The position numbers were made by a program, and so were the translations under genes. DNA of 57,363 nucleotides, from positions 1 through 57,363 of IMG/VR virus record IMGVR_UViG_3300043466_002831, one strand, 5' to 3'. Position 1 is the first letter of the stretch, and every line of letters starts with the position of its first letter. The notes under the pieces are model-generated. The model searched no databases and was not told the DNA's origin. It saw only the letters and a program-made list of their open reading frames with translations. Shown here in pieces: positions 26,373 to 57,363 of this stretch. The stretch is from a virus (taxonomy: Duplodnaviria > Heunggongvirae > Uroviricota > Caudoviricetes).

Positions 26373-26468
26373 GGTATTGTATTTTAGTTAGTTTATTTGT
26401 TTCCTGATAATAAATACTATCTTTGTGGAAATATAAGACTAAAAGAATATTTATCAATTAAAGATACG

Positions 26469-37263: not shown

Positions 37264-37337
37264 CGCGAGGTAGTAGCAGTGGTCAGCTCGTCAGGCTCAT
37301 AACCTGAAGGTCGGAGGTTCGAATCCTTCTCTCGCTA
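37264..37337 (+). tRNA. tRNA-Met(CAT), initiator-like; CCA not encoded
   Basis: CGCGAGG/TCTCGCT acceptor with unpaired C1, anticodon arm TCAGG-CTCATAA-CCTGA, T-arm GGAGG-TTCGAAT-CCTTC. Confidence 0.95.
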
Positions 37338-37400
37338 CTAAACAAAAAAAAGTTTACAAAAGATTTGGAAAATCGAAAAAGTATACTTATCTTTGTAAAA

Positions 37401-38827: not shown

Positions 38828-39703
38828 ATGTCAAAAGTAGACGAACTAAGAACAAAATTCCCTCAAGTAACTAACGGAACATTCATCAAAATGGTTCAGT
38901 TTGATTTTACAGGTACTCATAAATATTTGGAGTATATGTTAAAAAATTGGGCATACGAACGCACTCAACGTGGTATGAATTATACTCTTAATCGACTTAT
39001 GGAGGAGGTCAAAAAATTTGATGAGTTACTACCATATCATACAAATAAAGACATTTATTCTGAGGACTTTAATCATTATCGTAAATTGATTCAAATGAAC
39101 GAGAAGGCTCAAACTGTGAAAGATGACAAAACATTTGTTAAATCAGAACATGTTGACGTACTTTACGAAGATGATAATGTCATTATGGTTTCACCTAAGA
39201 CTCATAGAGGTTCTTTGAAATATGGTGCTGGTACCACATGGTGTACTGCTTCTAAGAGTAATGCTGATACGTTCAAGAGATATTCCAAAAACGGATGTTT
39301 GGTTTATCTGGTGGATAAGACAGAATCAACGAAAAAGAATTATCAAAAAATTGCGTTTTATAATAACACTGGAAAAAGTTTATCAGGTGAAATTGAAATC
39401 TACACTCAAAATGATAACCAGACTAGTGAGACGAGTTTAGTTAATAATGGTTGGAAACCTGAGAAATTAGCTGAGTTGATGTTAAGATATCGTGCTTATC
39501 ATGTAGATAAGGAAGCAGTCAAAAGAGCAAAGAGTAAAGTTGAATCTCTTATTGACGCTATGAAGAACCTTGACCTTGACGAACTTTATACAAATTTAAA
39601 ATATCTTGAAAACCGAGGTGAGAATGAGTTCAAAGATGTTAAAAATGTTGTAAACGCTTTTGTTAGTACGGTTGAAAAAAGTTTGGAGAAATACAAAGTT
39701 TGA
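38828..39703 (+). CDS. WCT-motif protein
   Basis: PKTHRGSLKYGAGTTWCTAS. Confidence 0.75.
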   Translation: MSKVDELRTKFPQVTNGTFIKMVQFDFTGTHKYLEYMLKNWAYERTQRGMNYTLNRLMEEVKKFDELLPYHTNKDIYSEDFNHYRKLIQMNEKAQTVKDDKTFVKSEHVDVLYEDDNVIMVSPKTHRGSLKYGAGTTWCTASKSNADTFKRYSKNGCLVYLVDKTESTKKNYQKIAFYNNTGKSLSGEIEIYTQNDNQTSETSLVNNGWKPEKLAELMLRYRAYHVDKEAVKRAKSKVESLIDAMKNLDLDELYTNLKYLENRGENEFKDVKNVVNAFVSTVEKSLEKYKV

Positions 39704-46828: not shown

Positions 46829-47233
46829 ATGAAAGCATGTTTCAAAGATATTAATAAATTTTTCACCACAGAACAAATCGAAGTTACGAAAGAGTTTGTA
46901 AAGTTCTTACATTCTCAATTACCTCTTACAGATGATGTCTACATTACATTCACAGGTAATAGAGATATTAAGATGACCACAGGGGTTAGAATGCCAGGAC
47001 ATAAGATATATGTATTGGCGAACAAAAGATTGTTGATTGATATTTTTAGAACCGTTGCACACGAGTGGGTTCATGAATTCCAACATCAAAAGATGGGACT
47101 TAAAGATACCGATAAGATACAGAACATCGGTGGTCCTGAAGAAAACATGGCAAATACTTTATCGGGAATTTTCGTTAAACAATTCGATAAAGAAAATCCC
47201 CAATATAGTAGTGTAATTTACGAACAGGATTAG
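46829..47233 (+). CDS. HExxH metallopeptidase-like protein
   Basis: VAHEWVHE...ENMAN. Confidence 0.7.
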   Translation: MKACFKDINKFFTTEQIEVTKEFVKFLHSQLPLTDDVYITFTGNRDIKMTTGVRMPGHKIYVLANKRLLIDIFRTVAHEWVHEFQHQKMGLKDTDKIQNIGGPEENMANTLSGIFVKQFDKENPQYSSVIYEQD

Positions 47234-47484
47234 TAGGTAGATTTACGAATTGTAAACTCTACAGTATCTCCAACCTCCTGAGGTTTAATAACCTTCGTCC
47301 ACAAATTATTTTCTTTTAAATGTATTCTCCAATAAGGAGTTGTCTGTAATGAATGGTCCTGACCAATCCCATGATATTCGACAGAGTCTACAACAAGTTT
47401 CATTTTTGTTTCAAGGACATCAGGTTTCATAGTACAAGACGAAATTAAACCTAAGACCAATAATAAATTAATACTCTTCTTCAT
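47230..47484 (-). CDS. lipoprotein
   Basis: MKKSINLLLVLGLISSC lipobox. Confidence 0.7.
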   Translation of the reverse strand: MKKSINLLLVLGLISSCTMKPDVLETKMKLVVDSVEYHGIGQDHSLQTTPYWRIHLKENNLWTKVIKPQEVGDTVEFTIRKSTY

Positions 47485-47692
47485 AACTTTCTAATTTTTC
47501 AGTTACAAAGGTACGCATTTCTCTCATTTTTTCCAAAAGTTCTTTTCTTAATTTGTGAAAATCCTCATCTTCGATTTCTTCGAATGAGCTGTAATGTTCA
47601 AAACAGTATTCCATACCTTCATTATCAATTCGGTATCTAACCATTTCCCAATTTTCGTATTCTTCTTCTGTCATAATATTCAATTTGTACAA
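47468..47692 (-). CDS. acidic hypothetical protein
   Basis: 74-aa ORF. Confidence 0.65.
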   Translation of the reverse strand: MYKLNIMTEEEYENWEMVRYRIDNEGMEYCFEHYSSFEEIEDEDFHKLRKELLEKMREMRTFVTEKLESYEEEY

Positions 47693-47711
47693 AGGTAAAT
47701 AAAAAAATATG

Positions 47712-48167
47712 TTAATCCAAAGAAGAATATAATCTTATCTTATCTTTTGCATTACCGATTAACCAAGGTTCGACATTTGGAATCTTATTGAGGAAATCCA
47801 ATTCATATTTATAACACCTTAGCTCTTCTTCATGTGGAGGAAGTTTTACTTTATTTCTTAAATAGAATAAATGTTTGGATTCATGAATGATGATTGCAGC
47901 AATATTATTTATTGAACCGTACAACATATCCCTCTGAGTAATTAGAATCGTGGAGGAGTCCTCAATAGTTGAAAACCCACCATTCCAATAAGATATGTGG
48001 TCACAAACTTCTATCAACAGTTCGTACTTATCTGAATCGGTATTTCTTATTAGTGCGACGGCACTATCAACTCTTAATTTCCACCCATCTCCGACATCAT
48101 CAATCTTAACTTGTGAGTAAATTGGGGTGAATAACACAACGAATAATAACAAAAAAAATAGTCTCAT
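47712..48167 (-). CDS. secreted HExxH metallopeptidase-like protein
   Basis: signal peptide; IIHESKH...EE motif. Confidence 0.7.
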   Translation of the reverse strand: MRLFFLLLFVVLFTPIYSQVKIDDVGDGWKLRVDSAVALIRNTDSDKYELLIEVCDHISYWNGGFSTIEDSSTILITQRDMLYGSINNIAAIIIHESKHLFYLRNKVKLPPHEEELRCYKYELDFLNKIPNVEPWLIGNAKDKIRLYSSLD

Positions 48168-48256
48168 AATTTAATTATAAATAGTAAAAATAAGGTCGAA
48201 TGATAAACCAATAATATTTATAGTCAATACTAAAATAAAAATAAACCAAAAACAAA

Positions 48257-50176
48257 ATGCTAATGAAAAAAATTCTCCTTTCCCTAACGTTCTCGTTATT
48301 AACCATTTTTGGTTTTGGGCAAACCACAACTTGTCCAATACCATCGACCGCAGGTGTTTACATTAACTTGGACACCTCGTACTTAGCAGGTACCGTTGCT
48401 CAAGGTTTTACCAATGTAGATTTATGTTTCTACAACAATACCTCGACAAAGATTACCGCTTTCCAATTTAGAGTTTTCTACGATAACTCGGCTTTTTCAG
48501 GTATCGATACCATAACTTCACTGAATACTTCATTCGCTCAAAACTTGAAATATTCTGTTGCTCAGGCATCTGGTTCGGCAACAATCACTTTCACTTATAC
48601 AGGTAGTTTATCAACATTTGAATTACCGTCAGGTCCGATTGTTAGATTAAAACTAGACCATGTATCAAACTTCGCATCACTTACTTCAATTGCGAATATG
48701 ACATTTGGAACAGTATCTACATATCCTGCAGTTGCAGCTAAACAAGATGGTACAGATAATACATTAACTCTACAAAACTACGGTGGTGTAATTGCTCCTC
48801 AAACAATGTCATTCAAAGGTACTTTTACCAACGTGACAGGTTCAGGGGCTAAAAACCTTACAGTTGCTTTGGAGAAGAAACTTAAACCAAGTGGTTCGTG
48901 GGTTCAAGTTACCAGTCAACTTACAAACACACAAGGTAAGTTTAATTTTGCAAACGTGGCAATAGATACTACAGGTTATTTTGTAAGAATTAAAGTACAA
49001 GGTGATACTATGGGTGTAGGTAACGTAATATCCACAGCAGATGCTCAAAAAGTACAGGACTATGTATTAGGTACACAAACACCAACAGGTTTTGATTACT
49101 ATGCTGCTGATGTTAATGGTGACAATAACTTAACTATCTCGGATGCTTGGGGTACATTTGGTAGAATCTCAGGTAGATTCTCTGTATGGCCTAACAACGT
49201 AAAAGATGTTAAGTTCTTTACAGTATCACAATACGGAACTATCAACGGTTCATCCACTAACTATACTTCATCAATTGCAGGTGTAACCAACTTCACTTAT
49301 GATATCATCGCAGGTCAACCTGACTCAGTTACTTACTATGTTTTAGTACCAGGTGATGCTAATGGAACAGGTTATAACATGGCACGTATGACACCAATCG
49401 AAGTGTTAATCGCACCTCAACCAGGTGTTGAACATCAAATCTATAATGTGATTGATAGTAGAGTTGAATATGATTTCCCAACAACAACTATCGAAGTTAA
49501 CGTACCAAGGTTATCAGTACAAGAAGGTAACTTGGTTAATGTACCTGTTAAAGTTTTAACTAACGGTACTGAGTTAGGTTCATTACAGTTCGGATTAAAA
49601 TACAACGATACATTACTTGAGTTCAAAGGTGTTGAAACAAAATCAGCAACTTCAAGTTGGGTATCATACTTGAACACAAACGACAACCAAATTGATTGGG
49701 GTGGATTCGATGTGAACAACCACACCAAACCACTTGTTGATGGTGCTGAGGTTGTGACTTTACAATTCGTTGCAAAAAAACCACAAGCGGAATGGACAGT
49801 TAGTCCTTTATGGACAACAAACAAATTCGCAGGAAACAACCAATGTAAAGATTTGGAAATCACACCAACAAACGGAATCGTTCAAGTATATAAGATGGCT
49901 TTCGGTGGTGATTTAACAGGTAATGATGAGATTACAGTTTCACCAAATCCAACAGATGATTTCACAACAATTACATTTAAAGTTAAAGAATACGGTCCTG
50001 TTAAACTTTCAGTTAAAGATTTAATGGGTAGAGAATATGAAGTTGTTTTGGATGGTTCAGTTCCAAAAGGAGAATATTCTTACATGGTTGATTTAGGTAA
50101 CTTATCACCAGGAGTTTACGTGGCAATGTTAAGAAGAGTTGACACAAACATCGCAACAAAAATAGTTGTACAATAA
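48257..50176 (+). CDS. secreted cohesin/Ig-like/dockerin protein with T9SS C-terminal sorting domain
   Basis: signal peptide; two cohesin-like beta-sandwiches (TAFQFRVFYD, SLQFGLKYN); DVNGDNNLTISD dockerin loop; VSPNP...DLMGR...LSPGVYV CTD. Confidence 0.8.
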   Translation: MLMKKILLSLTFSLLTIFGFGQTTTCPIPSTAGVYINLDTSYLAGTVAQGFTNVDLCFYNNTSTKITAFQFRVFYDNSAFSGIDTITSLNTSFAQNLKYSVAQASGSATITFTYTGSLSTFELPSGPIVRLKLDHVSNFASLTSIANMTFGTVSTYPAVAAKQDGTDNTLTLQNYGGVIAPQTMSFKGTFTNVTGSGAKNLTVALEKKLKPSGSWVQVTSQLTNTQGKFNFANVAIDTTGYFVRIKVQGDTMGVGNVISTADAQKVQDYVLGTQTPTGFDYYAADVNGDNNLTISDAWGTFGRISGRFSVWPNNVKDVKFFTVSQYGTINGSSTNYTSSIAGVTNFTYDIIAGQPDSVTYYVLVPGDANGTGYNMARMTPIEVLIAPQPGVEHQIYNVIDSRVEYDFPTTTIEVNVPRLSVQEGNLVNVPVKVLTNGTELGSLQFGLKYNDTLLEFKGVETKSATSSWVSYLNTNDNQIDWGGFDVNNHTKPLVDGAEVVTLQFVAKKPQAEWTVSPLWTTNKFAGNNQCKDLEITPTNGIVQVYKMAFGGDLTGNDEITVSPNPTDDFTTITFKVKEYGPVKLSVKDLMGREYEVVLDGSVPKGEYSYMVDLGNLSPGVYVAMLRRVDTNIATKIVVQ

Positions 50177-50183
50177 TTATAAT

Positions 50184-50203
50184 GAGGTCACTTCGGTGAC
50201 CTC
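50184..50203 (+). promoter_or_regulatory. perfect cUUCGg hairpin without U-tract
   Basis: GAGGTCAC-TTCG-GTGACCTC. Confidence 0.6.
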
Positions 50204-50242
50204 TTAGCCAAAATAATAAACCAAAACAAAAACAAAACAAAA

Positions 50243-50575
50243 ATGAGTGAAGAAACACAAGAAACAAACGACGGAACTTGGTCTGGCCTTAAAAAGACCC
50301 TAATCGGAACAATATCAACAGCGGTTTTAGCTGGTGGTACTTGGTTTACAACAACACTTTTCGGTGGTGAAAGTTCTGATGACAAAGAAGAACCTAAAAC
50401 TGAACAAGCTGCACCTGCATCACAACCTGTTATCAACTTGAATGTACAACAAAATCAAGAAAACAAACAAAAGGTTGAGAATGGTGGAACTCATGTTATT
50501 GAACGAGTAGTTGAAAAACCTGCAGCTTCACAACCAGCACAAGCACAACCTAAAAAGGAAGAAGAAAGTTGGTAA
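50243..50575 (+). CDS. membrane-anchored protein with P/Q/E-rich tail
   Basis: single TM then low-complexity region. Confidence 0.7.
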   Translation: MSEETQETNDGTWSGLKKTLIGTISTAVLAGGTWFTTTLFGGESSDDKEEPKTEQAAPASQPVINLNVQQNQENKQKVENGGTHVIERVVEKPAASQPAQAQPKKEEESW

Positions 50576-51291
50576 TGAGAAAGTTGTTATTGATTACACT
50601 ACCATTATTTTTGTTCTCTTGTAAAGTAAGTGGACAAATTGGTACGGTAAAAACTGAAGAGTATCAAGCAGATTTCGAAAAGAAACAATCTATGGCGGTC
50701 GTGTCGGATTACACCGACACAATCGTTATTCCTATTCAAGTTCTTAAAATTGGTATCAACGAGGAACTTTATGAAATGTACCCTGAACTTAAAGATAAAA
50801 GAGTTGGGTTAGGGGTTGCAAACATTGTGTTAGAGTACTTGGAGTCAACAGATAGATTTAAGTTCACTGAAGACCGAGAAGAAATTAAACAAAAGATGAT
50901 TGCACAAGACAAAGCATCTGATAAAGGTATTTCGAGTAATAAAATTGAAGTTAAGGGTAACGTTATCTTAGCTAAGTATTTTGTTTACATCGAGGTATAT
51001 GACTTTTCAGTTTCTGAAGACGAAGTGGTTAAAGCGGTTGACGGAGCTAAGGCGACACAGACAACTCGTTTGGGATTACAAGTTAGATTTGTTGATGCTG
51101 AAACAGGTGAGATTATCACAGGTAGTGGTTTAGGTGAGTCCTCAACTGTTAAGACATCTTCAATTTTGTCTGATGTGGAAGACATTAAGTTTAATCAATC
51201 AACAATAGGTATTTCGACCAAAAAGGCTCTCGAAACGGCATCGTCAAGAGTTGTGTCAAAATTAATAAAAAAGGGTGTCTTTAAATCTTAA
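50569..51291 (+). CDS. CsgG/HfaB/FlgT-like lipoprotein
   Basis: lipobox LFSC; RFKFTEDRE, LAKYFVYIEVYDF, LQVRFVDAETGEII. Confidence 0.75.
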   Translation: MVMRKLLLITLPLFLFSCKVSGQIGTVKTEEYQADFEKKQSMAVVSDYTDTIVIPIQVLKIGINEELYEMYPELKDKRVGLGVANIVLEYLESTDRFKFTEDREEIKQKMIAQDKASDKGISSNKIEVKGNVILAKYFVYIEVYDFSVSEDEVVKAVDGAKATQTTRLGLQVRFVDAETGEIITGSGLGESSTVKTSSILSDVEDIKFNQSTIGISTKKALETASSRVVSKLIKKGVFKS

Positions 51292-51297
51292 AAACAA

Positions 51298-51645
51298 ATG
51301 AATTTAAAAAAATTATTAATGGGTGAAACAGGTTACACAAAGGTAGACGATAAGAATCGTTTCTACTACATGTTACAACAAATGCAATCAAATCGTTGGA
51401 GAATTACCGCAATCGTATTGGGGTTATTTTTCTTCATTATCTTGGGTATCAACTCAGCGGTGTTCTTTGGAATTGAAATCAAAGAAGATTGGAAAGAGAT
51501 GTTACTTATCCTTTTAGGTGCGTTCGTTGGTAACTTAAACAAAGTGGTTGATTACTGGTTCAATTCAGAAGACCGTGATAAAATGTTAATCCAAAAAGTT
51601 GACGAAGAAGACGGTAATGTTATGTCTGACGTGACAGAAATCTAA
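51298..51645 (+). CDS. two-TM membrane protein
   Basis: two hydrophobic helices, VVDYWF. Confidence 0.7.
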   Translation: MNLKKLLMGETGYTKVDDKNRFYYMLQQMQSNRWRITAIVLGLFFFIILGINSAVFFGIEIKEDWKEMLLILLGAFVGNLNKVVDYWFNSEDRDKMLIQKVDEEDGNVMSDVTEI

Positions 51646-51646
51646 T

Positions 51647-53131
51647 ATGAATATTAAGAAAATTTTATTTACTTTAAGTTTTCTGTTCAACACGATAATG
51701 GTTTTAGGACAGGGGTTCTCGTATACATTTACGGACCCCTGTACCTTTAAACAGAAACAAATTTATATCGACAATCCATCGGGTAATGTGTTACTTACCT
51801 ATAATGGTTCGATACAGAGTTTTACCGCAGCTGAATTACAATCAGGGGCGATGGAACAGTGGGTTAATCAAGTTAATTCACAAAATCCCAACGGACCATG
51901 TAGTGGTGTTGGTTTAGCCCAAAATACAAATATGAATGTGTTAATAACTCAAAATAATATTGCGGTATTGACTAATGTGATGTCAGCATTAACCGACATA
52001 AGTTCAATTGGGGGAGCGAGTGTTGGTGGAATTGTCGAGGCGAAAGAAAAATCAGCATCAGAGGACAACAAAAAAAAGAACAACAACTCATCGAATAATA
52101 ATAATACGACATCAAATAGTAATCCTACCACTAATGGTCAGGGTAGTCAAACCATTAACAATCAAAAACAAGGAAATGGGCAAACTAACGAGGGAAATAA
52201 TGGTAGCTCTGGAGGAACTCAGACAAATCAACCAAACCAAACAGGCGGAAACACTAATCCAAATGGTGGAGGACAAACTCAAGGAAGTGGAGAAACGTCA
52301 CAGACATCAGGAGGAAACACAGGAAATCCGAATACAACAACTCAAGGAGGAGGTCAACAGACTGGGTCGACTGTAGGAGGGAACGGTTCAAATCCTCAGG
52401 GTAATGGTCAGAATAGTAATACACAAACTCCTGACGAAACACAACAAAATCAAAGTACAGATAATGCGAGAAGTACATCAAGTGCAAAAGAGAAAGTTGC
52501 TAATGCAAAACAAGGAGGGATTGTATTGAATGGTGATATAGTTGTAATTAATAGTGCGACACAAGGAGAACCACAACAATTTAGAATGAATATGAGTGTT
52601 GTTAAAAGTAATACCAACAACACAGTTGTTAAAGGTGCGTTACTTAACTATACAACCAGTATTAACAACTCAAGTTTAACTTTATTCATGGGTAGGAAAG
52701 TTAAAAGTTTTACAGGGATTGTTGCTAATTCATCAATGTTAAACTTTGAGAGAGATTTGTTCAATACTACTTCTTTAATGACTTCATACAAGTATAAATC
52801 AATTACATCAACACTTGGGGTTAATTTTACTACGGGTAAATTGGGTGAATCAAGATTCCAAAGTTTATCTGCACTTGGTGGTGGAGTTGGAACATTCAAA
52901 GTAAGTAAGAAGATAACCAATACAACCATGATGGTTGTGGTTTATTCACCTTTCGTTTATTACTACGAAGGTTTATGGTATAAGTCAGGTTGGTTAATGG
53001 TTCCATTCACAGCATTTGATTATAGATTAACAAAGAAATTTAAACTTAACTTGAGCTTCAGTGGGGTTCAACAAATAAAAAGTACCACAATAAATTACCA
53101 AGTATTACTTGGGGCAAAGGCATTATTATAA
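51647..53131 (+). CDS. secreted protein with N/Q/G/T/S low-complexity tract and C-terminal beta-barrel-like region
   Basis: signal peptide; alternating hydrophobic beta-strands in the C-terminal ~200 aa. Confidence 0.65.
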   Translation: MNIKKILFTLSFLFNTIMVLGQGFSYTFTDPCTFKQKQIYIDNPSGNVLLTYNGSIQSFTAAELQSGAMEQWVNQVNSQNPNGPCSGVGLAQNTNMNVLITQNNIAVLTNVMSALTDISSIGGASVGGIVEAKEKSASEDNKKKNNNSSNNNNTTSNSNPTTNGQGSQTINNQKQGNGQTNEGNNGSSGGTQTNQPNQTGGNTNPNGGGQTQGSGETSQTSGGNTGNPNTTTQGGGQQTGSTVGGNGSNPQGNGQNSNTQTPDETQQNQSTDNARSTSSAKEKVANAKQGGIVLNGDIVVINSATQGEPQQFRMNMSVVKSNTNNTVVKGALLNYTTSINNSSLTLFMGRKVKSFTGIVANSSMLNFERDLFNTTSLMTSYKYKSITSTLGVNFTTGKLGESRFQSLSALGGGVGTFKVSKKITNTTMMVVVYSPFVYYYEGLWYKSGWLMVPFTAFDYRLTKKFKLNLSFSGVQQIKSTTINYQVLLGAKALL

Positions 53132-53132
53132 C

Positions 53133-53720
53133 ATGAAAAAACTATTACTAACATTAGGATTTATTTTACCATTATTCGTTTACGGGCAAAAAACATTAAG
53201 AGATTCAATTTATGTCAAGACTGACATGTTTGAGTTGGTGTATTCAGAGAAATTACAACAACCTAAATTTATTAGATACACGGTTCAATGTCCAAATGGA
53301 ACCGCACCAAGAAAGGGTATGGACTTTTACGTTTGTGATTCAATCCTAACCTCAGATGACAAGGACTATGCAAACAATCCATATGATAAAGGACATTTGG
53401 CACCTGCAGCTGATTTTAACTGTACAAGTGAAATGTTATTTAAGACCTTCACATACCTTAATTGTTCCCTACAACAAGAGAACCTTAACAGAACCACTTG
53501 GAGATTGTTAGAGGTAAGAGAAAGGGATTTATCAAAGACACAGAAAGTTGTTGTTGAGATTAGATGTGTGTATTCACCAAAGTCAATTGTGTTACCAACA
53601 GGTGCAACAATACCTGATGCATACTACAAGACAATCAAATACGGTAAAACTACTGAAGTGTATTACTTCAAGAACGAGAAACCATTAACAACAGATTATA
53701 CCAAATACAAAATAAAATGA
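53133..53720 (+). CDS. secreted DNA/RNA non-specific endonuclease (NucA/EndA-like)
   Basis: signal peptide; YDKGHLAPAAD, QQENLNRTTW, IPDAYYK. Confidence 0.92.
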   Translation: MKKLLLTLGFILPLFVYGQKTLRDSIYVKTDMFELVYSEKLQQPKFIRYTVQCPNGTAPRKGMDFYVCDSILTSDDKDYANNPYDKGHLAPAADFNCTSEMLFKTFTYLNCSLQQENLNRTTWRLLEVRERDLSKTQKVVVEIRCVYSPKSIVLPTGATIPDAYYKTIKYGKTTEVYYFKNEKPLTTDYTKYKIK

Positions 53721-54166
53721 GAAAACTATTATTAATTCCCGTGATGTTCTTAGCGTCTTTAACTTACGCTCAGAACTGTTATTCAGTTAAACATGTTGAG
53801 AGTCGTGCTAATATTGAAGGTATTAGTCCAAAGAGATTCACACTTGGTGTTAAACAGATTACTGAAGAAGTAATATCAGAGAAGTATTCTATCTGTGAGG
53901 ATGGGGATAGTGTTTCTGTTATTGTTGAAAGTATTGAAGCTCCAACAACAGGGATTGCAATTGGTCCATTTGAAATGAAAAGAAAGGTAACAATTGTAAC
54001 TACCAAAATAATTATTAATGGTAAGGAATATGTCGGAGTAGGTGAGAGTAAGATTGATGTTAAGTCAACTTTTATTGAACTACAAGATGAGAACATACCA
54101 TTTGAAAAATCATCATTCTCCGCAGCATTAAAGAAATCTTTAATGGATGGTGTTAATAAAATATGA
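53717..54166 (+). CDS. secreted protein, possible second CsgG-fold paralogue
   Basis: signal peptide; LGVKQITEE and SSFSAALKKSL echo LGVANIVLE and STIGISTKKAL of 50569. Confidence 0.5.
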   Translation: MRKLLLIPVMFLASLTYAQNCYSVKHVESRANIEGISPKRFTLGVKQITEEVISEKYSICEDGDSVSVIVESIEAPTTGIAIGPFEMKRKVTIVTTKIIINGKEYVGVGESKIDVKSTFIELQDENIPFEKSSFSAALKKSLMDGVNKI

Positions 54167-55839
54167 GGAAATATGTAACCATATTATTTTTAATTTTTAC
54201 CAATATTCTTTTTGGTCAAACATTTACGTATTCTGGTTACATCTATAATGCAGGAGGAGGAGCGGCACCTAATGTTCCCGTTAAGTTATATAAAAGAACC
54301 ACACCAAATTTGGTTGGGTTCACGTCACAAACAAACTATAACGGACATTCATATTATCGTTCAACAGGTAGTGCGACTTGGACTTCAGCAAAAACAACTT
54401 GTGAATCCATGAATGGTCACTTGGCAACAGTGTCTAATATCAGTGAGAATAATTTCTTATTCAACACATGGCCATCAGGTTGGATTGGGTATTATCAAGA
54501 TAAGGTTGCGGGATACACATATTCTGAACCTGCTGGTGGTTATCGTTGGACTGAGGTACAAGTTACCGATGGATTATCTGCAGACTATGACGTTTCTTCA
54601 TATTCTTCAGGAACGGTTTTGACCGACATTAAATCTTCAATTAACTCCACACTATATAATACACCAACTTATTCAAGTACAGGTGGTAAGTATCTAACAT
54701 TTAATGGGACTAACCAATACGCAATAACGAATAATTTGGCTTCTAAGTTTTCAAGTACTTCAATATCTGTAGTTGCTTGGATTTACCCAACAGGGAATGG
54801 TGTAATTGCATCTGAATTAGGTGTAGCAAGTCCTTCTTCAGGTTGGCATGAATCAATTATGGAAATTACTGGTTCAAACACATTAAGAGTTGGATTTTGG
54901 AACGGTGCGGGGATTACTCAATTAAGTACTTCAATTACTTTAAACACTTGGAATTTAGTATGCGTCACATACGATGGTACAACAATGAGAGGTTATTTAA
55001 ATAACGTAAACTTTGGTAGTACCAACTTTACTCGTCAAGCGGCGTTTTTACATAGTGGTACAGGACAACAACATTTTGCCTTTGGTTTACAAGATGCTAC
55101 TAACATGGGACATGGTGGTTATGGTGCGTTTAGATTGGGAGACATCCAATTCTTTAATAGAGCAATTACTGTTGATGAAATTGATAGAACATTTAATCTA
55201 TACAATTATAGATATAGGTCTAACCAATATGTTAATTGGAATCCTGGAGAACCTAACAATTCGGGGACTGAAGATTATACTCAGTTTGTAAGTGGAGGTA
55301 AATGGAATGACTTGGCAAACACATCACTACCATACGTGATAGAGTTTGATTATGTTGTCGGTTTCACTGCATGGGTATTACACCAAACAGTTTATACTAA
55401 TTCATTAGGGTATTATTCTTTTTCTCAATCAACAAATCCATCAACTGAATGGTATATTCAAATTGACATACCAACACCAACAACGACTATTAGTAATAAT
55501 GATGCGATTTCCGCCAACAATAAAGTAATAAGTAGAACATTTAACTCATTGGATTATTATCGATATGATGTTAATAATGATGGGAATATTAATATAACGG
55601 ATGTATACCGAATTTATATGAGAATTAGCGGTAGATTCTCAACTTGGGGAGGGTCTTTACCTAACACAAGATTATTTACTTCAAGCCAATATAATACAAT
55701 TAACACCTCAACTTCGGATTTAAGAAGTACATTACCTGGTACTACTTCAATCACAATTACTAGCCCAACGAGTGGTGCTAGTTCAAGTTATTATTTGATT
55801 AATACAGGATATTCAAATGGTTCAGTAGTTAGTTACTGA
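54163..55839 (+). CDS. secreted C-type lectin/LamG/dockerin protein
   Basis: YNGHSYY..TWTSA..CES.NGHLAT, WNPGEPNN, WNDL (CTL); LamG core; DVNNDGNINITD dockerin loop. Confidence 0.8.
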   Translation: MRKYVTILFLIFTNILFGQTFTYSGYIYNAGGGAAPNVPVKLYKRTTPNLVGFTSQTNYNGHSYYRSTGSATWTSAKTTCESMNGHLATVSNISENNFLFNTWPSGWIGYYQDKVAGYTYSEPAGGYRWTEVQVTDGLSADYDVSSYSSGTVLTDIKSSINSTLYNTPTYSSTGGKYLTFNGTNQYAITNNLASKFSSTSISVVAWIYPTGNGVIASELGVASPSSGWHESIMEITGSNTLRVGFWNGAGITQLSTSITLNTWNLVCVTYDGTTMRGYLNNVNFGSTNFTRQAAFLHSGTGQQHFAFGLQDATNMGHGGYGAFRLGDIQFFNRAITVDEIDRTFNLYNYRYRSNQYVNWNPGEPNNSGTEDYTQFVSGGKWNDLANTSLPYVIEFDYVVGFTAWVLHQTVYTNSLGYYSFSQSTNPSTEWYIQIDIPTPTTTISNNDAISANNKVISRTFNSLDYYRYDVNNDGNINITDVYRIYMRISGRFSTWGGSLPNTRLFTSSQYNTINTSTSDLRSTLPGTTSITITSPTSGASSSYYLINTGYSNGSVVSY

Positions 55840-55880
55840 ACTATTTATATATAAAATAAACTAAATAAAAATTAAAAAAA

Positions 55881-56711
55881 ATGTTATTAAAAAAAGGTTC
55901 AAAAAGTGATGACGTAAAGAAATTACAAGAAAAATTAGGATTGGCGGCTGATGGTATTTTCGGTGCTGGTACTGAAACTAAAGTTAAAGAATGGCAAGCA
56001 GCAAATGGTTTAACTGCAGATGGTATTGTAGGTGACGGTACTTGGTCCAAAATGTTTGGTGGAGTTGCTCCATCAGTTATTAAAGAAGATGTAGTAATTG
56101 CGAAAGCGGGACCATTAAACATAGACAAGTTGAAAGGTCACATTCCTGATGCGGTAATTGCTCAGATTCCTGAAACTGCGGCAAAGTTCAACATTACAAA
56201 CAATTTAAGGTTAGCTCACTTCTTATCACAATGTGGTCACGAGTCAGGTGGTTTTAAAGCTGTGTCTGAAAACTTAAACTATTCTGCTGATGGATTGAAA
56301 AAAATCTTCCCTAAATATTTCCCTGGTAATCTTGCTGAGTCATACGCAAGAAACCCTGAGAAAATTGCTTCCAAAGTATATGGTGGTAGAATGGGTAATG
56401 GTGATGAAACAACAAAAGAAGGTTTCAAATTTAGAGGTAGAGGTTACATCCAATTGACAGGTAAGGCAAACTACACAAACTTCGCTAAGTTCATTGGTGA
56501 AGATACTGTTGCTAATCCTGATTTGGTTGCTACAAAATACCCATTGGCTTCTGCAGCATTCTTCTTCGATTCAAATAAGTTATGGGCTATTTGTGATAAA
56601 GGTGCTGATGACGCTACCGTAACTGCGGTTACAAAAAGAGTGAACGGTGGAACTATCGGGTTACCTGATAGAATCAAACACTTCAAAGAGTATTACAACT
56701 TACTTAAATAA
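55881..56711 (+). CDS. endolysin: PG-binding domain + GH19
   Basis: ADGIFGAGT/ADGIVGDGT repeats; AHFLSQCGHES, RGRGYIQLTGKANY, VNGG. Confidence 0.92.
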   Translation: MLLKKGSKSDDVKKLQEKLGLAADGIFGAGTETKVKEWQAANGLTADGIVGDGTWSKMFGGVAPSVIKEDVVIAKAGPLNIDKLKGHIPDAVIAQIPETAAKFNITNNLRLAHFLSQCGHESGGFKAVSENLNYSADGLKKIFPKYFPGNLAESYARNPEKIASKVYGGRMGNGDETTKEGFKFRGRGYIQLTGKANYTNFAKFIGEDTVANPDLVATKYPLASAAFFFDSNKLWAICDKGADDATVTAVTKRVNGGTIGLPDRIKHFKEYYNLLK

Positions 56712-56741
56712 TGAAATGGGAGTCACTGACTCCCATTTTTG
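56712..56741. terminator. bidirectional terminator
   Basis: AAATGGGAGTCA-C-TGACTCCCATTTT between convergent genes. Confidence 0.7.
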
Positions 56742-57097
56742 TTTTCAAAATAAAAAACAACTTCAACATCATTTACGGTAATTAATCCAAAATCTCTAGC
56801 CAAATTAAAGTTGGGTGTATCTCTTTCTAATCTATTTATTGAGGTTTTAACGACCTTTCTAAAGTCTTCTAATCTGAATGTGCTCTTCCACTTATTACAT
56901 CTACCACAAGAAGGGAGAAGGTTATATATTTCATTTGTACCTCTCTCCCTTTTGTAATGTTCCAACTGACTATCGGTATGATTTCTAAATAAAGGTTCTA
57001 TGTGGTCGATTTGCATTTGTTTTATTGTGATTTCATTTCCACAATAAGCACAATGTCCTCCACACTTATTATAAACCTCTTCTCTATTAATTTTCAT
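56723..57097 (-). CDS. HNH endonuclease
   Basis: CAYCG, IDHIEP, NLLPSCGRCN. Confidence 0.9.
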   Translation of the reverse strand: MKINREEVYNKCGGHCAYCGNEITIKQMQIDHIEPLFRNHTDSQLEHYKRERGTNEIYNLLPSCGRCNKWKSTFRLEDFRKVVKTSINRLERDTPNFNLARDFGLITVNDVEVVFYFENKNGSQ

Positions 57098-57308
57098 ACC
57101 AATTTTCGTTGGGGTTATTGTGTGCTATAACCACAAATGACATCCCACTACCAGGGTCTTTACTTGAGAATGAGTAAAACCCGTTACAGTATTTTTTTGG
57201 GTCTTTAGTTGCTAAACAGATATCACCATTTTTACCTGGTTGTTTTTTATAGATATATCTATAACCCTCATAATCTATGTGGTCTAATACTATTGTACCG
57301 TCATTCAT
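57087..57308 (-). CDS. hypothetical protein
   Basis: 73-aa ORF. Confidence 0.6.
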   Translation of the reverse strand: MNDGTIVLDHIDYEGYRYIYKKQPGKNGDICLATKDPKKYCNGFYSFSSKDPGSGMSFVVIAHNNPNENWYEN

Positions 57309-57363
57309 TTGTTCTATTTTTTAATTTTCTTCATCATCTTCTTCGGGATTGAATTGGGTAAAA

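What the first reader, a model, noticed from the sequence alone, without database searches (positions are those of the whole stretch)
48257..55839. Phage operon that may build a cellulosome-like cohesin-dockerin surface complex with its own CsgG-like channel
Seen: eight tightly coupled + strand genes behind one TATTTAT motif (48215). All appear to encode envelope-targeted proteins: a 2x cohesin-like/dockerin protein with a T9SS CTD, an anchored linker, a CsgG-like lipoprotein, a 2-TM protein, a beta-barrel-like protein, a secreted nuclease, a possible second CsgG-fold protein and a dockerin lectin. Established: cohesin-dockerin pairs assemble cellulosomes, T9SS CTDs route cargo through the Bacteroidota T9SS, and CsgG forms an outer-membrane secretion pore. 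Inference: the infected cell displays a phage-encoded scaffold carrying a lectin and a nuclease, which could serve superinfection exclusion, aggregation/adhesion, grazer defence or progeny release. I know of no description of such a phage system.
Basis: partly seen in the sequence, partly recalled or inferred. Interest (0 to 1): 0.92.

Follow-up and report, generated by a model that had tools for sequence, protein, structure and literature searches.

The report
Phage-encoded host envelope and lectin-display module
A large lake-water phage of Flavobacterium-type bacteria carries a conserved, phage-specific block of exported proteins that most likely re-dresses the envelope of the infected cell: a scaffold tagged for the host's type IX secretion system, a sugar-binding lectin with a matching plug, two CsgG-family proteins, an outer-membrane barrel and an inner-membrane tether. 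Its purpose is untested.

Summary
The eight + strand genes are real, tightly packed and sit at the stated coordinates.
- T9SS type A sorting domain and one cohesin, both above Pfam cut-off.
- A half-degenerate dockerin inside a 158-aa cassette shared by genes 1 and 8.
- A CsgG-family lipoprotein, shown by profile and by fold.
- A second, non-lipidated CsgG-fold paralogue.
- A 12-stranded outer-membrane barrel on a floppy stalk.
- An NS-type nuclease.
- An EPN/WND C-type lectin.

The core (genes 1, 2, 3, 5, 7, 8) is kept in 48 of 48 well-flanked phage contigs and in the cultured Flavobacterium phage immuto. It usually lies beside the endolysin. The gene-1 dockerin-cohesin query matched none of 151 sampled host-family genomes outside a phage-like contig.

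Not shown:
- That cohesin and dockerin bind. The complex prediction gave only weak support, and it pointed at the N-terminal domain.
- That the CsgG-like protein forms a pore.
- That the nuclease is displayed.
- That TATTTAT is a promoter; it occurs at chance frequency.

Precedents exist for the parts: phage T9SS cargo, and phage CsgG/CsgF. The combination is undescribed in the papers I could search. This scan has already noted the same module at least 34 times in at least 30 other genomes. Function remains inferred: surface or envelope remodelling, with a lysis-linked role as the main rival.

The parts
48257..50176 (+). g1, 639-aa scaffold. Signal peptide (cleavage before Q22); N-terminal cohesin-like domain (aa 23-182); beta-sandwich + dockerin cassette (aa 214-371 = 48896-49369); cohesin (aa 412-544 = 49490-49888); T9SS type A CTD (aa 562-638 = 49940-50170).
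   Evidence: Pfam Cohesin E 3e-11, Por_Secre_tail 31.3 bits (cut-off 27), Dockerin_1 E 0.004-0.04. TIGR04183 24 bits against 23. Among 21 homologues, the CTD is found in 21, Cohesin in 17 and Dockerin_1 in 14. The profile hits solved dockerin 4uyp_B at E 0.0011.
50184..50203 (+). 8-bp GC-rich hairpin with a TTCG loop in the 66-nt g1-g2 spacer. There is no T-tract after it.
   Evidence: Role unknown: possibly an mRNA stabiliser or attenuator.
50243..50575 (+). g2, 110-aa bitopic inner-membrane protein. N-in TM at about aa 19-41; P/Q/E/K-rich periplasmic tail ending in an invariant Trp (EE[ED][SP]W).
   Evidence: Alignment of 28 homologues. The stop overlaps the g3 start. Present in 48 of 48 well-flanked loci. 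No Pfam or PHROG family.
50569..51291 (+). g3, 240-aa lipoprotein of the CsgG family (lipobox LFSC; likely start ATG 50575). It is the most conserved gene of the module.
   Evidence: 18 of 35 phmmer homologues hit PF03783 (best E 1.9e-25). The profile hits PDB CsgG at E 2.7e-6. AF2 model pLDDT 83. Foldseek's top PDB hits are CsgG (E 3.5e-7, TM 0.5-0.57), followed by PelC, FlgT and GNA1162. Median identity among relatives is 79%.
51298..51645 (+). g4, 115-aa protein with two TM segments and an acidic C-terminal tail. Holin-like in shape; optional in the module.
   Evidence: Sequence. Weak hit to phrog_38564. Present in 25 of 48 relatives.
51647..53131 (+). g5, 494 aa. Signal peptide; small N-terminal domain with two invariant Cys (aa 22-116); N/Q/G/T/S-rich linker of variable length (aa 117-288); 12-stranded outer-membrane beta-barrel (aa 292-494 = 52520-53128).
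   Evidence: AF2 gives pLDDT 63-87 for the barrel blocks and below 50 for the linker. Foldseek: NanC E 4.2e-5, KdgM, and the EspP, intimin and NalP beta-domains. VIA-align: NalP translocator Z 16.3 (rmsd 3.8, 224 aligned), KdgM Z 14.6, PorV 14.4, FapF 13.4. In the alignment the linker length ranges from near 0 to about 300 aa.
53109..53720 (+). g6, secreted DNA/RNA non-specific endonuclease (likely start ATG 53133; DKGH motif). An accessory gene.
   Evidence: PF01223 E 4.9e-19. phrog_14168 nuclease. Present in 7 of 48 relatives. Has neither a dockerin nor a CTD.
53717..54166 (+). g7, 149-aa exported, non-lipidated, shortened paralogue of g3 (CsgG-like core).
   Evidence: hhalign A4 against A1: probability 96%, E 4.2e-9, 116 columns. 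Present in 48 of 48 relatives.
54163..55839 (+). g8, 558-aa lectin. Signal peptide; beta-sandwich; C-type lectin domain (EPN and WND motifs) split by a LamG insertion; C-terminal beta-sandwich + dockerin cassette (about 55345-55836). No T9SS CTD.
   Evidence: Lectin_C E 2.3e-7, Laminin_G_3 E 7e-14, Dockerin_1 E 0.004. The cassette is 33% identical to that of g1, E 7e-22. Heads vary while the cassette is conserved among relatives.
55881..56711 (+). g9, endolysin (PG_binding_1 + GH19), without a signal peptide. Probably the last gene of the same unit.
   Evidence: phrog_181 E 1.4e-66. Pfam. Lies within the locus in 34 of 48 relatives.
56713..56739 (.). 12-bp bidirectional intrinsic terminator closing the unit.

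Best explanation
This is a phage-encoded module that places a set of phage proteins in every layer of the infected Bacteroidota cell's envelope. It is not a virion part and not host DNA.

**Shown**
- All eight products carry export or membrane signals of the Bacteroidota type.
- g1 carries a T9SS type A sorting domain and a cohesin.
- g1 and g8 share one beta-sandwich/dockerin cassette.
- g3 and g7 are CsgG-family paralogues.
- g5 ends in a 12-stranded outer-membrane barrel.
- The core set travels together in phages.

**Inferred mechanism**
1. Host Sec exports the proteins. g2 and g4 stay in the inner membrane. g3 is lipidated and faces the periplasm from the outer membrane.
2. The host T9SS takes g1 out by its CTD and leaves it on, or near, the cell surface.
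3. The dockerin cassettes plug into g1's cohesin-type domains. g8's cassette goes to the N-terminal domain. g1's own cassette goes to the C-terminal cohesin, in cis or in trans. This gives a chain of anchor, adaptor and lectin.
4. g8 has no CTD, so docking would have to happen in the periplasm, with the folded lectin hitch-hiking out with g1. Otherwise the lectin acts in the periplasm.
5. g3, g7 and g5 form an outer-membrane sub-complex: a ring of lipoproteins around or beside a small barrel, as in PelC-PelB, or a CsgG-like portal. g2's extended tail, with its invariant C-terminal Trp, tethers this to the inner membrane.
6. The net effect is an infected cell, and later its debris, that carries swappable Ca-dependent sugar-binding heads. 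The most likely purpose is to mask or bind host-type surface glycans. That could serve superinfection exclusion, protect progeny from being lost on debris, or clump neighbouring hosts. The nuclease is an optional add-on.
For: **Export signals.** Signal peptides with Gln at +1 and a lipobox are present. Q22 is invariant in the g1 and g5 alignments.

**Scaffold and cassette.**
- The T9SS CTD is above cut-off in g1 and found in 21 of 21 homologues. Cohesin is found in 17 of 21.
- The g1 and g8 cassettes are 33% identical, E 7e-22. They are the only two cassettes in the 137.7-kb record, which also holds only one type A CTD.
- The second Ca-loop is canonical in both (DVNGDNNLTISD and DVNNDGNINITD). 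The g1 profile hits the solved dockerin 4uyp_B at E 0.0011.
- g8 heads vary among relatives (C-lectin with or without LamG, and other domains) while the cassette stays.
- Phage immuto splits g1 into an exported N-domain + cassette protein without a CTD and an exported cohesin + CTD protein. A fusion in one lineage and a split in another is a hint that the parts work together.

**Predicted complex.** The job tested g8's cassette against g1's two cohesin-type domains.
- Verdict: weak support, score 0.34, best of 3 controls 0.00.
- In the tool's calibration, 58 of 80 solved complexes and 2 of 110 mismatched pairs reached the pass mark. At 0.60 or under, only 7 of those 80 passed, along with both mismatches.
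- The runs agree in at least 79% of contacts, and the partner's pLDDT is at least 53.
- Replacing the N-terminal domain dropped the score to 0.00.

**CsgG family and barrel.**
- g3.
- g7 as a paralogue.
- g5 barrel.
- g2-g3 start/stop overlap and the invariant C-terminal Trp.

**Conservation.**
- The core is kept in 48 of 48 well-flanked loci.
- It is also kept in a distant contig binned as Sediminibacterium.
- g1 residues 250-552 matched 1 of 151 host-family genomes, and that match is on a phage-like contig.

**Precedent.** Phage T9SS cargo is published (PMC7468147).
Against: - The complex prediction is weak. By the tool's own calibration such a pass is more often wrong than right unless the guess was already likely.
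- That prediction points at the domain that is not a Pfam-level cohesin (E 0.062; hhalign not significant).
- Dockerin_1 is below Pfam's cut-off in both window proteins. The first Ca-loop is degenerate. In immuto's adaptor protein the second loop is degenerate too.
- g8, g6 and g7 have no T9SS signal. I know of no demonstration of hitch-hiking through the T9SS.
- In Flavobacterium many type A cargoes are released rather than anchored (general knowledge), so 'display' may really be 'secretion'.
- No oligomer or pore was tested for g3.
- The module's usual place beside the endolysin, and the holin-shaped g4, fit a lysis role at least as well for the g2/g3/g5/g7 half.
- No functional data exist. 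The only expression hint is a few short contigs in one metatranscriptome.
Confidence: 0.5

Rival explanations
1. **Lysis-linked outer-membrane device.** g2 (inner-membrane tether), g3/g7 (CsgG-family) and g5 (barrel) work with the holin-shaped g4 and the endolysin g9. They would breach or gate the outer membrane at the end of infection. This makes them a functional analogue of spanins, or of the gated CsgG pore proposed for phage Melnitz. The cohesin/lectin half is then a separate passenger function.
For: - The endolysin is the next gene, lies before the only strong terminator, and has no signal peptide.
- An endolysin lies within the locus in 34 of 48 relatives and in the distant contigs L085-L087.
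- g3 is as conserved as the endolysin: median 79% against 83%.
- g2 and g3 have the membrane topology and overlapping-gene layout of an i-spanin/o-spanin pair.
- Phage CsgG/CsgF genes beside a lysin have been proposed to time lysis (PMC9004378).
Against: - g2's periplasmic part is a P/Q-rich low-complexity stretch, not coiled coil. g3 is a 220-aa folded domain, not a short Pro-rich lipoprotein. So neither meets the spanin definitions.
- In immuto the module lies among replication genes, and the nearest lysin-like gene is about 6 kb away.
- g4 is missing from the module in 23 of 48 relatives.
- The cohesin/lectin genes never separate from g2/g3/g5, even in the most distant contig. That argues for one function.
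Confidence: 0.22
2. **Periplasmic and envelope defence, with no surface display.** The lectin binds peptidoglycan or LPS/capsule intermediates in the periplasm. The nuclease degrades DNA entering from superinfecting phages. The CsgG-family, barrel and tether proteins alter envelope permeability. g1 alone is secreted.
For: - g6, g7 and g8 have Sec signals only, with no T9SS domain.
- g3 has no acidic lipoprotein-export signal after its Cys, so it should face the periplasm.
- The CsgG/LpoB/TolB-N fold is widely used as a periplasmic module. It is fused to kinases, caspases and FlgT in bacteria.
Against: - It does not explain why g8 keeps a dockerin cassette shared with the T9SS-tagged g1 while its head varies.
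- The nuclease is dispensable, present in 7 of 48 relatives.
- An EPN/WND C-type lectin with swappable heads looks like an outward-facing recognition module.
Confidence: 0.15
3. **Curli-like (type VIII) fibre secretion.** g3 is a CsgG pore that exports the N/Q/G/T-rich tract of g5, or another subunit, as an amyloid or fibre.
For: - g3's closest solved fold is CsgG.
- g5 has a tract of about 170 aa rich in N, Q, G, T and S.
Against: - No CsgA, B, E or F relatives were seen in the module.
- The tract has no repeat register. It is predicted disordered, and among relatives its length runs from almost nothing to about 300 aa, as a linker would.
- The tract is covalently joined to a barrel.
- g3's nearest bacterial relatives are not in curli operons.
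- Its constriction-loop residues differ from CsgG's (YPELKDKR against YPASNF).
Confidence: 0.04
4. **Virion (tail or decoration) proteins, or host DNA wrongly joined to a phage contig.**
For: - Ig-like and lectin domains do decorate some virions.
- A few MAG bins labelled Flavobacterium or Bacteroidetes hold the module.
Against: - Every soluble product has a Sec signal peptide, which virion proteins assembled in the cytoplasm lack.
- None has a structural PHROG.
- The module sits in a cultured phage genome and in at least 201 IMG/VR contigs.
- The MAG contigs that hold it also carry the phage endolysin and the same gene order.
- Only 1 of 151 host-family genomes matched, and that match is on such a contig.
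Confidence: 0.03

Closest known systems
Cellulosome-type cohesin-dockerin scaffolds (anchoring scaffoldin, adaptor scaffoldin, dockerin-tagged subunits; e.g. Acetivibrio cellulolyticus ScaB dockerin, PDB 4uyp)
   Same: - A Pfam-level cohesin sits next to a cell-surface anchoring signal.
- A dockerin-like module with a canonical second Ca-loop is shared by an 'adaptor' part and a cargo protein.
- Cargo heads are swappable.
- Immuto splits anchor and adaptor into two proteins.
   Different: - The system is phage-encoded and sits in a Gram-negative host.
- The anchor is a T9SS CTD, not an SLH or sortase signal.
- The cargo is a lectin, not an enzyme.
- The dockerin is half-degenerate, below Pfam's cut-off, and embedded in a beta-sandwich.
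- Binding has only weak predicted support.
Phage-encoded T9SS type A cargo of 'Cryophage' (Bellas et al. 2020, PMC7468147)
   Same: A Bacteroidota phage carries genes with type A T9SS sorting domains. These presumably use the host system to export phage proteins, and the cargo varies between phage variants.
   Different: There the cargoes are single enzymes or a PA14 protein in variable islands. Here one CTD protein sits in a fixed multi-gene core with cohesin/dockerin, CsgG-family, barrel and tether proteins.
CsgG, the curli (type VIII) secretion channel (PF03783; PDB 4uv3, 3x2r, 6l7a), and the csgG/csgF genes of pelagimyophages and phage Melnitz (PMC9004378)
   Same: - g3 is a lipoprotein whose homologue profile and predicted fold match CsgG best.
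- Its conserved 'YP' loop aligns with the CsgG constriction loop.
- It is phage-borne and near a lysin, as in Melnitz.
   Different: - No CsgF, E, A or B is present.
- g3 itself is below Pfam detection.
- The TM1 hairpin region is about 6 residues shorter and polar.
- The constriction residues differ.
- It is paired with a soluble paralogue (g7), a barrel (g5) and an inner-membrane tether (g2).
- The hosts are Bacteroidota, not SAR11 or OM43.
PelC-PelB outer-membrane export complex (PDB 5t0z, 9h80; PMC12141448)
   Same: A small CsgG/LpoB-fold lipoprotein (PelC is among the top fold hits for g3) is encoded with an outer-membrane beta-barrel protein. In Pel a ring of twelve lipoproteins surrounds the barrel on the periplasmic side.
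   Different: - No polysaccharide synthesis genes are present.
- g5's barrel has 12 strands (PelB's has 16) and carries a stalk and an N-terminal domain.
- No oligomer was tested.
Type Va autotransporter translocators (NalP 1uyo, AIDA-I 4mee) and small 12-strand porins (KdgM 4pr7, NanC 2wjq)
   Same: g5 ends in a 12-stranded barrel, with an N-terminal 'passenger-side' domain and a conserved segment just before strand 1. NalP is the best VIA-align match (Z 16.3). KdgM and NanC are the best barrel-only matches.
   Different: - No Pfam autotransporter domain is detected.
- A disordered linker of about 170 aa lies between the predicted helix and the barrel.
- The helix placement has low confidence (pLDDT 46-67).
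- The topology of the N-terminal part, outside or periplasmic, is unknown.
Flavobacterium phage vB_FspM_immuto genes immuto35A_12 to _19 (MW353176)
   Same: - It holds the same module in a cultured phage-host pair: nuclease, C-type lectin, adaptor, cohesin + CTD, tether, CsgG-like protein, barrel and small paralogue.
- g3 is 74% identical.
   Different: - Gene order is shuffled, with lectin and nuclease first.
- g1 is split in two.
- There is no LamG insertion and no g4.
- The genes are annotated only as hypothetical, lectin, cohesin or nuclease.

Membership tests
T9SS type A cargo (Por_Secre_tail / TIGR04183) | C-terminal sorting domain scoring above the curated cut-offs | tested here: met
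   PF18962 31.3 bits against 27. TIGR04183 24 against 23. Genome-level hit 33.4 bits. Found in 21 of 21 homologues.
T9SS type A cargo (Por_Secre_tail / TIGR04183) | N-terminal Sec signal peptide, so that the CTD is read in the periplasm | tested here: met
   g1 starts with a basic/hydrophobic leader, then G|Q22. Q22 is invariant in 21 homologues.
T9SS type A cargo (Por_Secre_tail / TIGR04183) | Export that depends on the host T9SS, with CTD cleavage | not testable with these tools
   Needs expression in wild-type and T9SS-mutant Flavobacterium.
Cohesin (PF00963) | Domain match above the Pfam gathering score | tested here: met
   g1 aa 412-544: 44.1 bits against 24.1, full profile 1-139. Found in 17 of 21 homologues.
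Cohesin (PF00963) | The second (N-terminal) domain of g1 is also a cohesin | tested here: inconclusive
   Cohesin is its only Pfam lead, at E 0.062 and 13.9 bits. hhalign against the C-terminal cohesin gave probability 0.45%.
Cohesin-dockerin pair | Specific binding of the dockerin to the cohesin | tested here: inconclusive
   Complex prediction gave weak support: 0.34 against a best control of 0.00. In calibration the mark was reached by 58 of 80 solved complexes and 2 of 110 mismatches; at 0.60 or under, by only 7 of those 80 and by both mismatches. Runs agree in at least 79% of contacts and the partner's pLDDT is at least 53. The score fell to 0.00 when the N-terminal domain was replaced.
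Dockerin type I (PF00404) | Domain match above the Pfam gathering score (22.9 bits) | tested here: not met
   g1 14.6-17.7 bits, g8 17.7 bits. Best among relatives E 2.3e-4. The g1 profile against solved dockerin 4uyp_B gives E 0.0011.
Dockerin type I (PF00404) | Two EF-hand-like Ca-binding loops (D-x-[DN]-x-[DN]-G-x-[IV]-x-x-x-D), each followed by a helix | tested here: not met
   The second loop is canonical in g1 and g8. The first loop lacks the ligand residues in both (sequence). So this is a half-degenerate, dockerin-like module.
CsgG family (PF03783) | Sequence membership | tested here: inconclusive
   g3 itself has no Pfam hit at E 0.1. However, 18 of 35 of its phmmer homologues do (best 1.9e-25). 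Relatives in FCB bacteria at 35% identity pass the cut-off. The family profile hits PDB CsgG at E 2.7e-6.
CsgG family (PF03783) | CsgG-like alpha/beta fold and N-terminal lipidation signal | tested here: met
   Foldseek's top PDB hits are CsgG, E 3.5e-7, TM 0.5-0.57. The top BFVD hit is a phage CsgG. The lipobox is LFSC.
CsgG family (PF03783) | Two amphipathic TM hairpins per subunit and a nonameric 36-strand pore | tested here: inconclusive
   The model has long strands at 137-155, 159-176 and 182-197. But the TM1 region is about 6 aa shorter than in E. coli CsgG and is polar. No oligomer was predicted.
Curli / type VIII secretion system | CsgE and CsgF accessory proteins and CsgA and CsgB repeat subunits in the locus | tested here: not met
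   No such families were found in any of the nine products. The g5 tract is a variable linker without a repeat register.
Two-component spanin (i-spanin / o-spanin) | i-spanin: N-terminal TM plus a coiled-coil periplasmic domain. o-spanin: a short Pro-rich outer-membrane lipoprotein. The two genes are adjacent or overlapping. | tested here: not met
   The topology and gene overlap fit. But g2's tail is low-complexity, and g3 is a 220-aa folded CsgG-type domain. No spanin PHROG was hit.
Type Va autotransporter | C-terminal 12-strand barrel with a pore-filling helix directly before it, and the PF03797 domain | tested here: inconclusive
   A 12-strand barrel is modelled, and NalP is the best VIA match at Z 16.3. 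No Pfam autotransporter hit. The helix at 88-119 is separated from the barrel by a disordered linker of about 170 aa and has low confidence.
C-type lectin (PF00059), Ca-dependent sugar binding | Domain above cut-off, with the EPN and WND motifs of the primary Ca/sugar site | tested here: met
   Lectin_C 32 bits against 22.6 on the N-terminal half. The immuto orthologue gives E 3e-15. EPN and WND are present in the C-terminal half after the LamG insertion. Sugar binding itself was not tested.

The most novel reading that the evidence does not exclude
Large Bacteroidota phages encode a self-contained surface-display kit. A T9SS-tagged anchor exports folded sugar-binding heads that have no sorting signal of their own: they dock onto the anchor by cohesin-dockerin contacts in the periplasm and hitch-hike out. 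A phage-made outer-membrane complex (CsgG-family ring, 12-strand barrel, inner-membrane tether) serves as its own portal or anchor point. This would be a new class of phage-directed rebuilding of the host surface, and the first case of cohesin-dockerin-mediated piggy-back secretion through the T9SS.
Probability: 0.2. Interest if true: 0.85.

Novelty: new variant of a known kind. Interest (0 to 1): 0.64.

Why it matters
**Why the module should matter to the phage.**
- It is a core feature of a large, environmentally common group of big Flavobacteriia-type phages. At least 201 IMG/VR contigs hold it. This particular phage is present in at least 19 lake-water metagenome runs.
- Its CsgG-like gene is as conserved as the endolysin.
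- None of its genes has a tested function.

**What it would add if the display model holds.**
- A non-cellulosomal use of cohesin-dockerin logic encoded by a virus.
- A new way of using the T9SS.
- An explanation for swappable lectin heads in phage genomes: receptor masking, exclusion or host clumping.

**What it would add if the lysis model holds.** It would fill the gap of how phages of Bacteroidota breach the outer membrane.

**It can be tested.** A cultured pair exists (phage immuto and Flavobacterium sp. LMO8), so both models are directly testable.

Tried and rejected
**Promoter and motif**
- TATTTAT as a promoter mark: 33 matches against 28 +/- 5 expected. The sigma-70-type scan found fewer promoter-like sites than in shuffles. 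No promoter can be named.

**Second cohesin and host origin**
- hhalign of g1's N-terminal domain against its C-terminal cohesin was not significant.
- A search for longer (host adhesin) relatives of g1 250-639 returned none. This is weak evidence only.
- The same segment matched 1 of 151 host-family genomes, on a phage-like contig.

**Searches that failed or told little**
- The genome-contig scan with the wide g3 alignment failed for lack of a conserved stretch. It was repeated with a narrower alignment.
- The bacterial contexts of g3 homologues (caspase, kinase, CHASE2 cyclase) gave no functional clue for the phage module.
- PHROGs gave nothing for g1-g5, g7 and g8.
- NCBIfam gave only the CTD.

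**Expression**
- One estuary metatranscriptome holds short contigs (126-236 nt, 0-3 mismatches) on g1, g2, g4, g7 and g9.
- The tool warns that DNA can be present in such libraries, and that contigs cannot show starts, ends or levels. This is not used as evidence of transcription.

**Amyloid reading of the g5 tract**
- Rejected. The tract varies in length and has no repeat register.

**Literature**
- Searches for a described phage cohesin/dockerin/CsgG module found none. The library lacks most subscription journals.

**Not done**
So g1, g7 and g8 were not folded, and no g3 oligomer, g2-g3 pair or g1 cassette-cohesin pair was predicted.

Full report
**What is there.**
The window is the first 57 kb of a 137.7-kb IMG/VR virus record that CheckV rates 47% complete. 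Spacing is tight:
- 66 nt between g1 and g2, holding an 8-bp hairpin with a TTCG loop.
- A stop/start overlap between g2 and g3.
- Gaps of 1-6 nt, or overlaps of 4 nt, elsewhere.

A ninth gene follows after 41 nt: the endolysin (PG_binding_1 + GH19; phrog_181, E 1.4e-66). It ends at the only strong intrinsic terminator of the region, at 56713-56739. The transcription unit therefore probably includes the lysin.

It carries no weight.

**Export signals.**
- g1, g5, g6, g7 and g8 begin with a basic/hydrophobic leader followed by Gln (G|QTTT, G|QGFS, G|QKTL, A|QNCY, G|QTFT). This is the Bacteroidetes Q-rule for signal peptidase I substrates (PMC5837995), which has already been noted in phage proteins of P. 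gingivalis (PMC10367356). The Gln is invariant in the g1 and g5 alignments.
- g3 has a lipobox (LFSC) with no acidic surface-export signal after the Cys.
- g2 has a single N-in TM segment and g4 has two.

These are therefore envelope proteins made for a Bacteroidota host, not virion parts.

**g1 and g8: scaffold and lectin.**

*g1*
- It scores above Pfam's cut-offs for Cohesin (aa 412-544, E 3e-11) and for the T9SS type A sorting domain (aa 562-638), and above NCBIfam's cut-off for TIGR04183.
- Among 21 homologues from related phage contigs, the CTD is found in 21, Cohesin in 17 and Dockerin_1 in 14.
- The dockerin is below cut-off in the window proteins (14.6-17.7 bits against 22.9). But the g1 family profile finds a solved dockerin (4uyp_B, E 0.0011), and the second Ca-loop is canonical in g1 and g8. 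The first loop is degenerate.
- The N-terminal domain (aa 23-182) has Cohesin as its only Pfam lead, at E 0.062. It is not significantly similar to the C-terminal cohesin by hhalign. So '2x cohesin' is one confirmed plus one possible.

*The shared cassette*
- The dockerin sits inside a 158-aa beta-sandwich cassette that g1 (214-371) and g8 (403-554) share at 33% identity, E 7e-22.
- These are the only two copies in the record, which also holds a single type A CTD.

*g8*
- Its head is a C-type lectin with EPN and WND motifs, split by a LamG insertion.
- Among relatives the head changes (lectin without LamG, other domains) while the cassette is kept.

*Immuto*
- The cultured phage immuto splits g1 into two proteins. 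One is an exported 363-aa protein (N-terminal domain + cassette, no CTD). The other is an exported 243-aa protein (cohesin + CTD).
- Fused in one lineage and split in another is a classical hint that the parts work together.

*Complex prediction*
- The one complex job tested g8's cassette against both cohesin-type domains of g1. It gave weak support: score 0.34, best control 0.00.
- In the tool's calibration, 58 of 80 solved complexes and 2 of 110 mismatches reached the mark. At 0.60 or under, only 7 of those 80 passed, along with both mismatches.
- The runs agree in at least 79% of contacts, and the partner's pLDDT is at least 53.
- The score fell to 0.00 when the N-terminal domain was replaced.
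- I read this as a lead that the lectin docks on the N-terminal domain, not as a demonstration.

**g3 and g7: two CsgG-family proteins.**

*Membership of g3*
- g3 has no direct Pfam hit. A full HMMER scan of 1.8 billion representatives found 239 relatives.
- 18 of 35 full-length relatives hit PF03783 CsgG (best E 1.9e-25) and 10 hit LpoB.
- Their profile hits solved CsgG at E 2.7e-6.
- The AF2 model (pLDDT 83) matches CsgG best in the PDB (E 3.5e-7, TM 0.5-0.57). PelC, FlgT, CT253 and GNA1162 follow.
- The best viral match is a phage protein named CsgG.
- The nearly invariant YPEL...KRVGxG stretch aligns with CsgG's constriction loop.

*Whether g3 is a pore*
- The region equivalent to the first transmembrane hairpin is about six residues shorter than in E. 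coli CsgG and is polar.
- No oligomer was predicted.
- The nearest bacterial relatives (35% identity, FCB-group MAGs) lie next to or are fused with caspase, kinase and cyclase domains, not curli genes.
- So g3 is a CsgG-family member, but 'channel' is unproven, and a curli system is excluded by the absence of CsgA, B, E and F.

*g7*
- It is a shortened, non-lipidated paralogue of g3 (hhalign probability 96%, E 4.2e-9).

**g5 and g2.**

*g5*
- The last 200 residues fold as a 12-stranded barrel (pLDDT 63-87 by block).
- Foldseek matches NanC and KdgM porins and autotransporter or intimin beta-domains.
- VIA-align gives NalP translocator Z 16.3 (rmsd 3.8, 224 aligned), AaaA 14.7, KdgM 14.6, AIDA-I 14.6, PorV 14.4 and FapF 13.4.
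- Several relatives end in Phe, as outer-membrane proteins often do.
- Upstream lie a small domain with two invariant Cys, a conserved helix of low confidence, and an N/Q/G/T/S-rich tract. The tract is disordered in the model, and among relatives its length runs from almost nothing to about 300 aa. It is a stalk, not an amyloid repeat.
- Whether the N-terminal part faces out (autotransporter-like) or stays in the periplasm (FapF- or PelB-like) cannot be told.

*g2*
- It keeps a conserved cytoplasmic start, a TM segment, short conserved periplasmic motifs and an invariant C-terminal Trp.
- With its stop overlapping g3's start, it looks like an inner-membrane tether for the g3 complex.

**Conservation.**
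- g3 has relatives on at least 201 IMG/VR contigs.
- In the 48 loci with enough flank, g1, g2, g3, g5, g7 and g8 are all present. The order g1-g2-g3-(g4)-g5 is nearly fixed; g4 lies before g3 in 2 loci.
- g4 is present in 25 of the 48, the nuclease in 7, and an endolysin within the locus in 34. The loci include near-duplicates.
- g3 is the most conserved gene (median 79% identity, close to the endolysin's 83%). g1, g5 and g7 lie near 50-58%.
- A distant contig binned as Sediminibacterium still has endolysin, cohesin, CTD, g2, g3, g5 and a lectin-type gene together. The two halves of the module therefore do not separate.
- The dockerin-cohesin part of g1 matched 1 of 151 genomes sampled from the host family, and that match lies on a phage-like contig.

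**How it most likely works.**
The steps are given under Best explanation. In brief: Sec export; T9SS export of g1; cassettes plugging into g1's cohesin-type domains to form an anchor-adaptor-lectin chain; and an outer-membrane sub-complex of g3, g7 and g5 tethered by g2. The likely outcome is an infected cell, and its debris, bearing Ca-dependent sugar-binding heads.

Only the parts list and its conservation are shown. Assembly, route and purpose are inferred.

The main rival is a lysis-linked role for the g2/g3/g5/g7 half. It draws on the endolysin's position and on the published proposal that phage CsgG/CsgF pores time lysis (PMC9004378). Against it, neither g2 nor g3 meets the spanin definitions, and in immuto the module lies among replication genes.

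**Novelty.**
Published precedents for the parts:
- Phage T9SS type A cargo (PMC7468147).
- Phage CsgG/CsgF (PMC9004378).
- Q-rule phage proteins (PMC10367356).

I found no description of the combined module. Immuto's genes are annotated only generically.

Within this scan the module is not new. Earlier notes describe it at least 34 times in at least 30 genomes, with readings close to mine.

I rate it a new variant of a known kind: phage-encoded exported proteins that remodel the host envelope. Interest is moderate to high, because the module is widespread, phage-specific, functionally blank and testable in a cultured system.

Noticed in passing
window 50184-50203: Perfect 8-bp GC-rich hairpin with a TTCG loop in the g1-g2 spacer. 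It is not followed by a T-tract. It could stabilise the g1 message or attenuate read-through into g2-g9.
   Followed up: no
window 56723-57097 (- strand): An HNH endonuclease gene (phrog_2118, E 2.7e-34) sits directly behind the bidirectional terminator that closes the module. It is probably a mobile homing-type insertion.
   Followed up: no
window 20035-21354, 26397-28226, 38828-39703: Three + strand genes all hit the same PHROGs of unknown function (phrog_28193, phrog_17056). This looks like a paralogous family spread over the window.
   Followed up: no
P0085, P0106, P0090, P0096, P0100, P0128, P0050 (bacterial and metagenomic relatives of g3): The g3-type CsgG/LpoB domain occurs fused to Ser/Thr kinases, caspase (Peptidase_C14) domains and, in one case, a C1q domain. 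In FCB MAGs it sits next to caspase or CHASE2-cyclase genes. This appears to be an uncharacterised signalling-associated branch of the CsgG family.
   Followed up: partly
L087 4572-6341 and 6343-6699: In the Sediminibacterium-binned contig, the cohesin protein and the T9SS CTD lie in two adjacent ORFs. This is either a frameshift or sequencing error, or another natural split.
   Followed up: no
window 47000-57363, runs X1-X20: The stretch is held at 68-95% of sampled words by 19 lake-water metagenome runs (2020-2024). One estuary metatranscriptome has short, near-identical contigs on g1, g2, g4, g7 and the endolysin.
   Followed up: partly
window 37264-37338: A single tRNA-Met (CAT) gene lies just upstream of the ORF-free stretch that another first-stage note flagged as a possible large structured RNA.
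   Followed up: no
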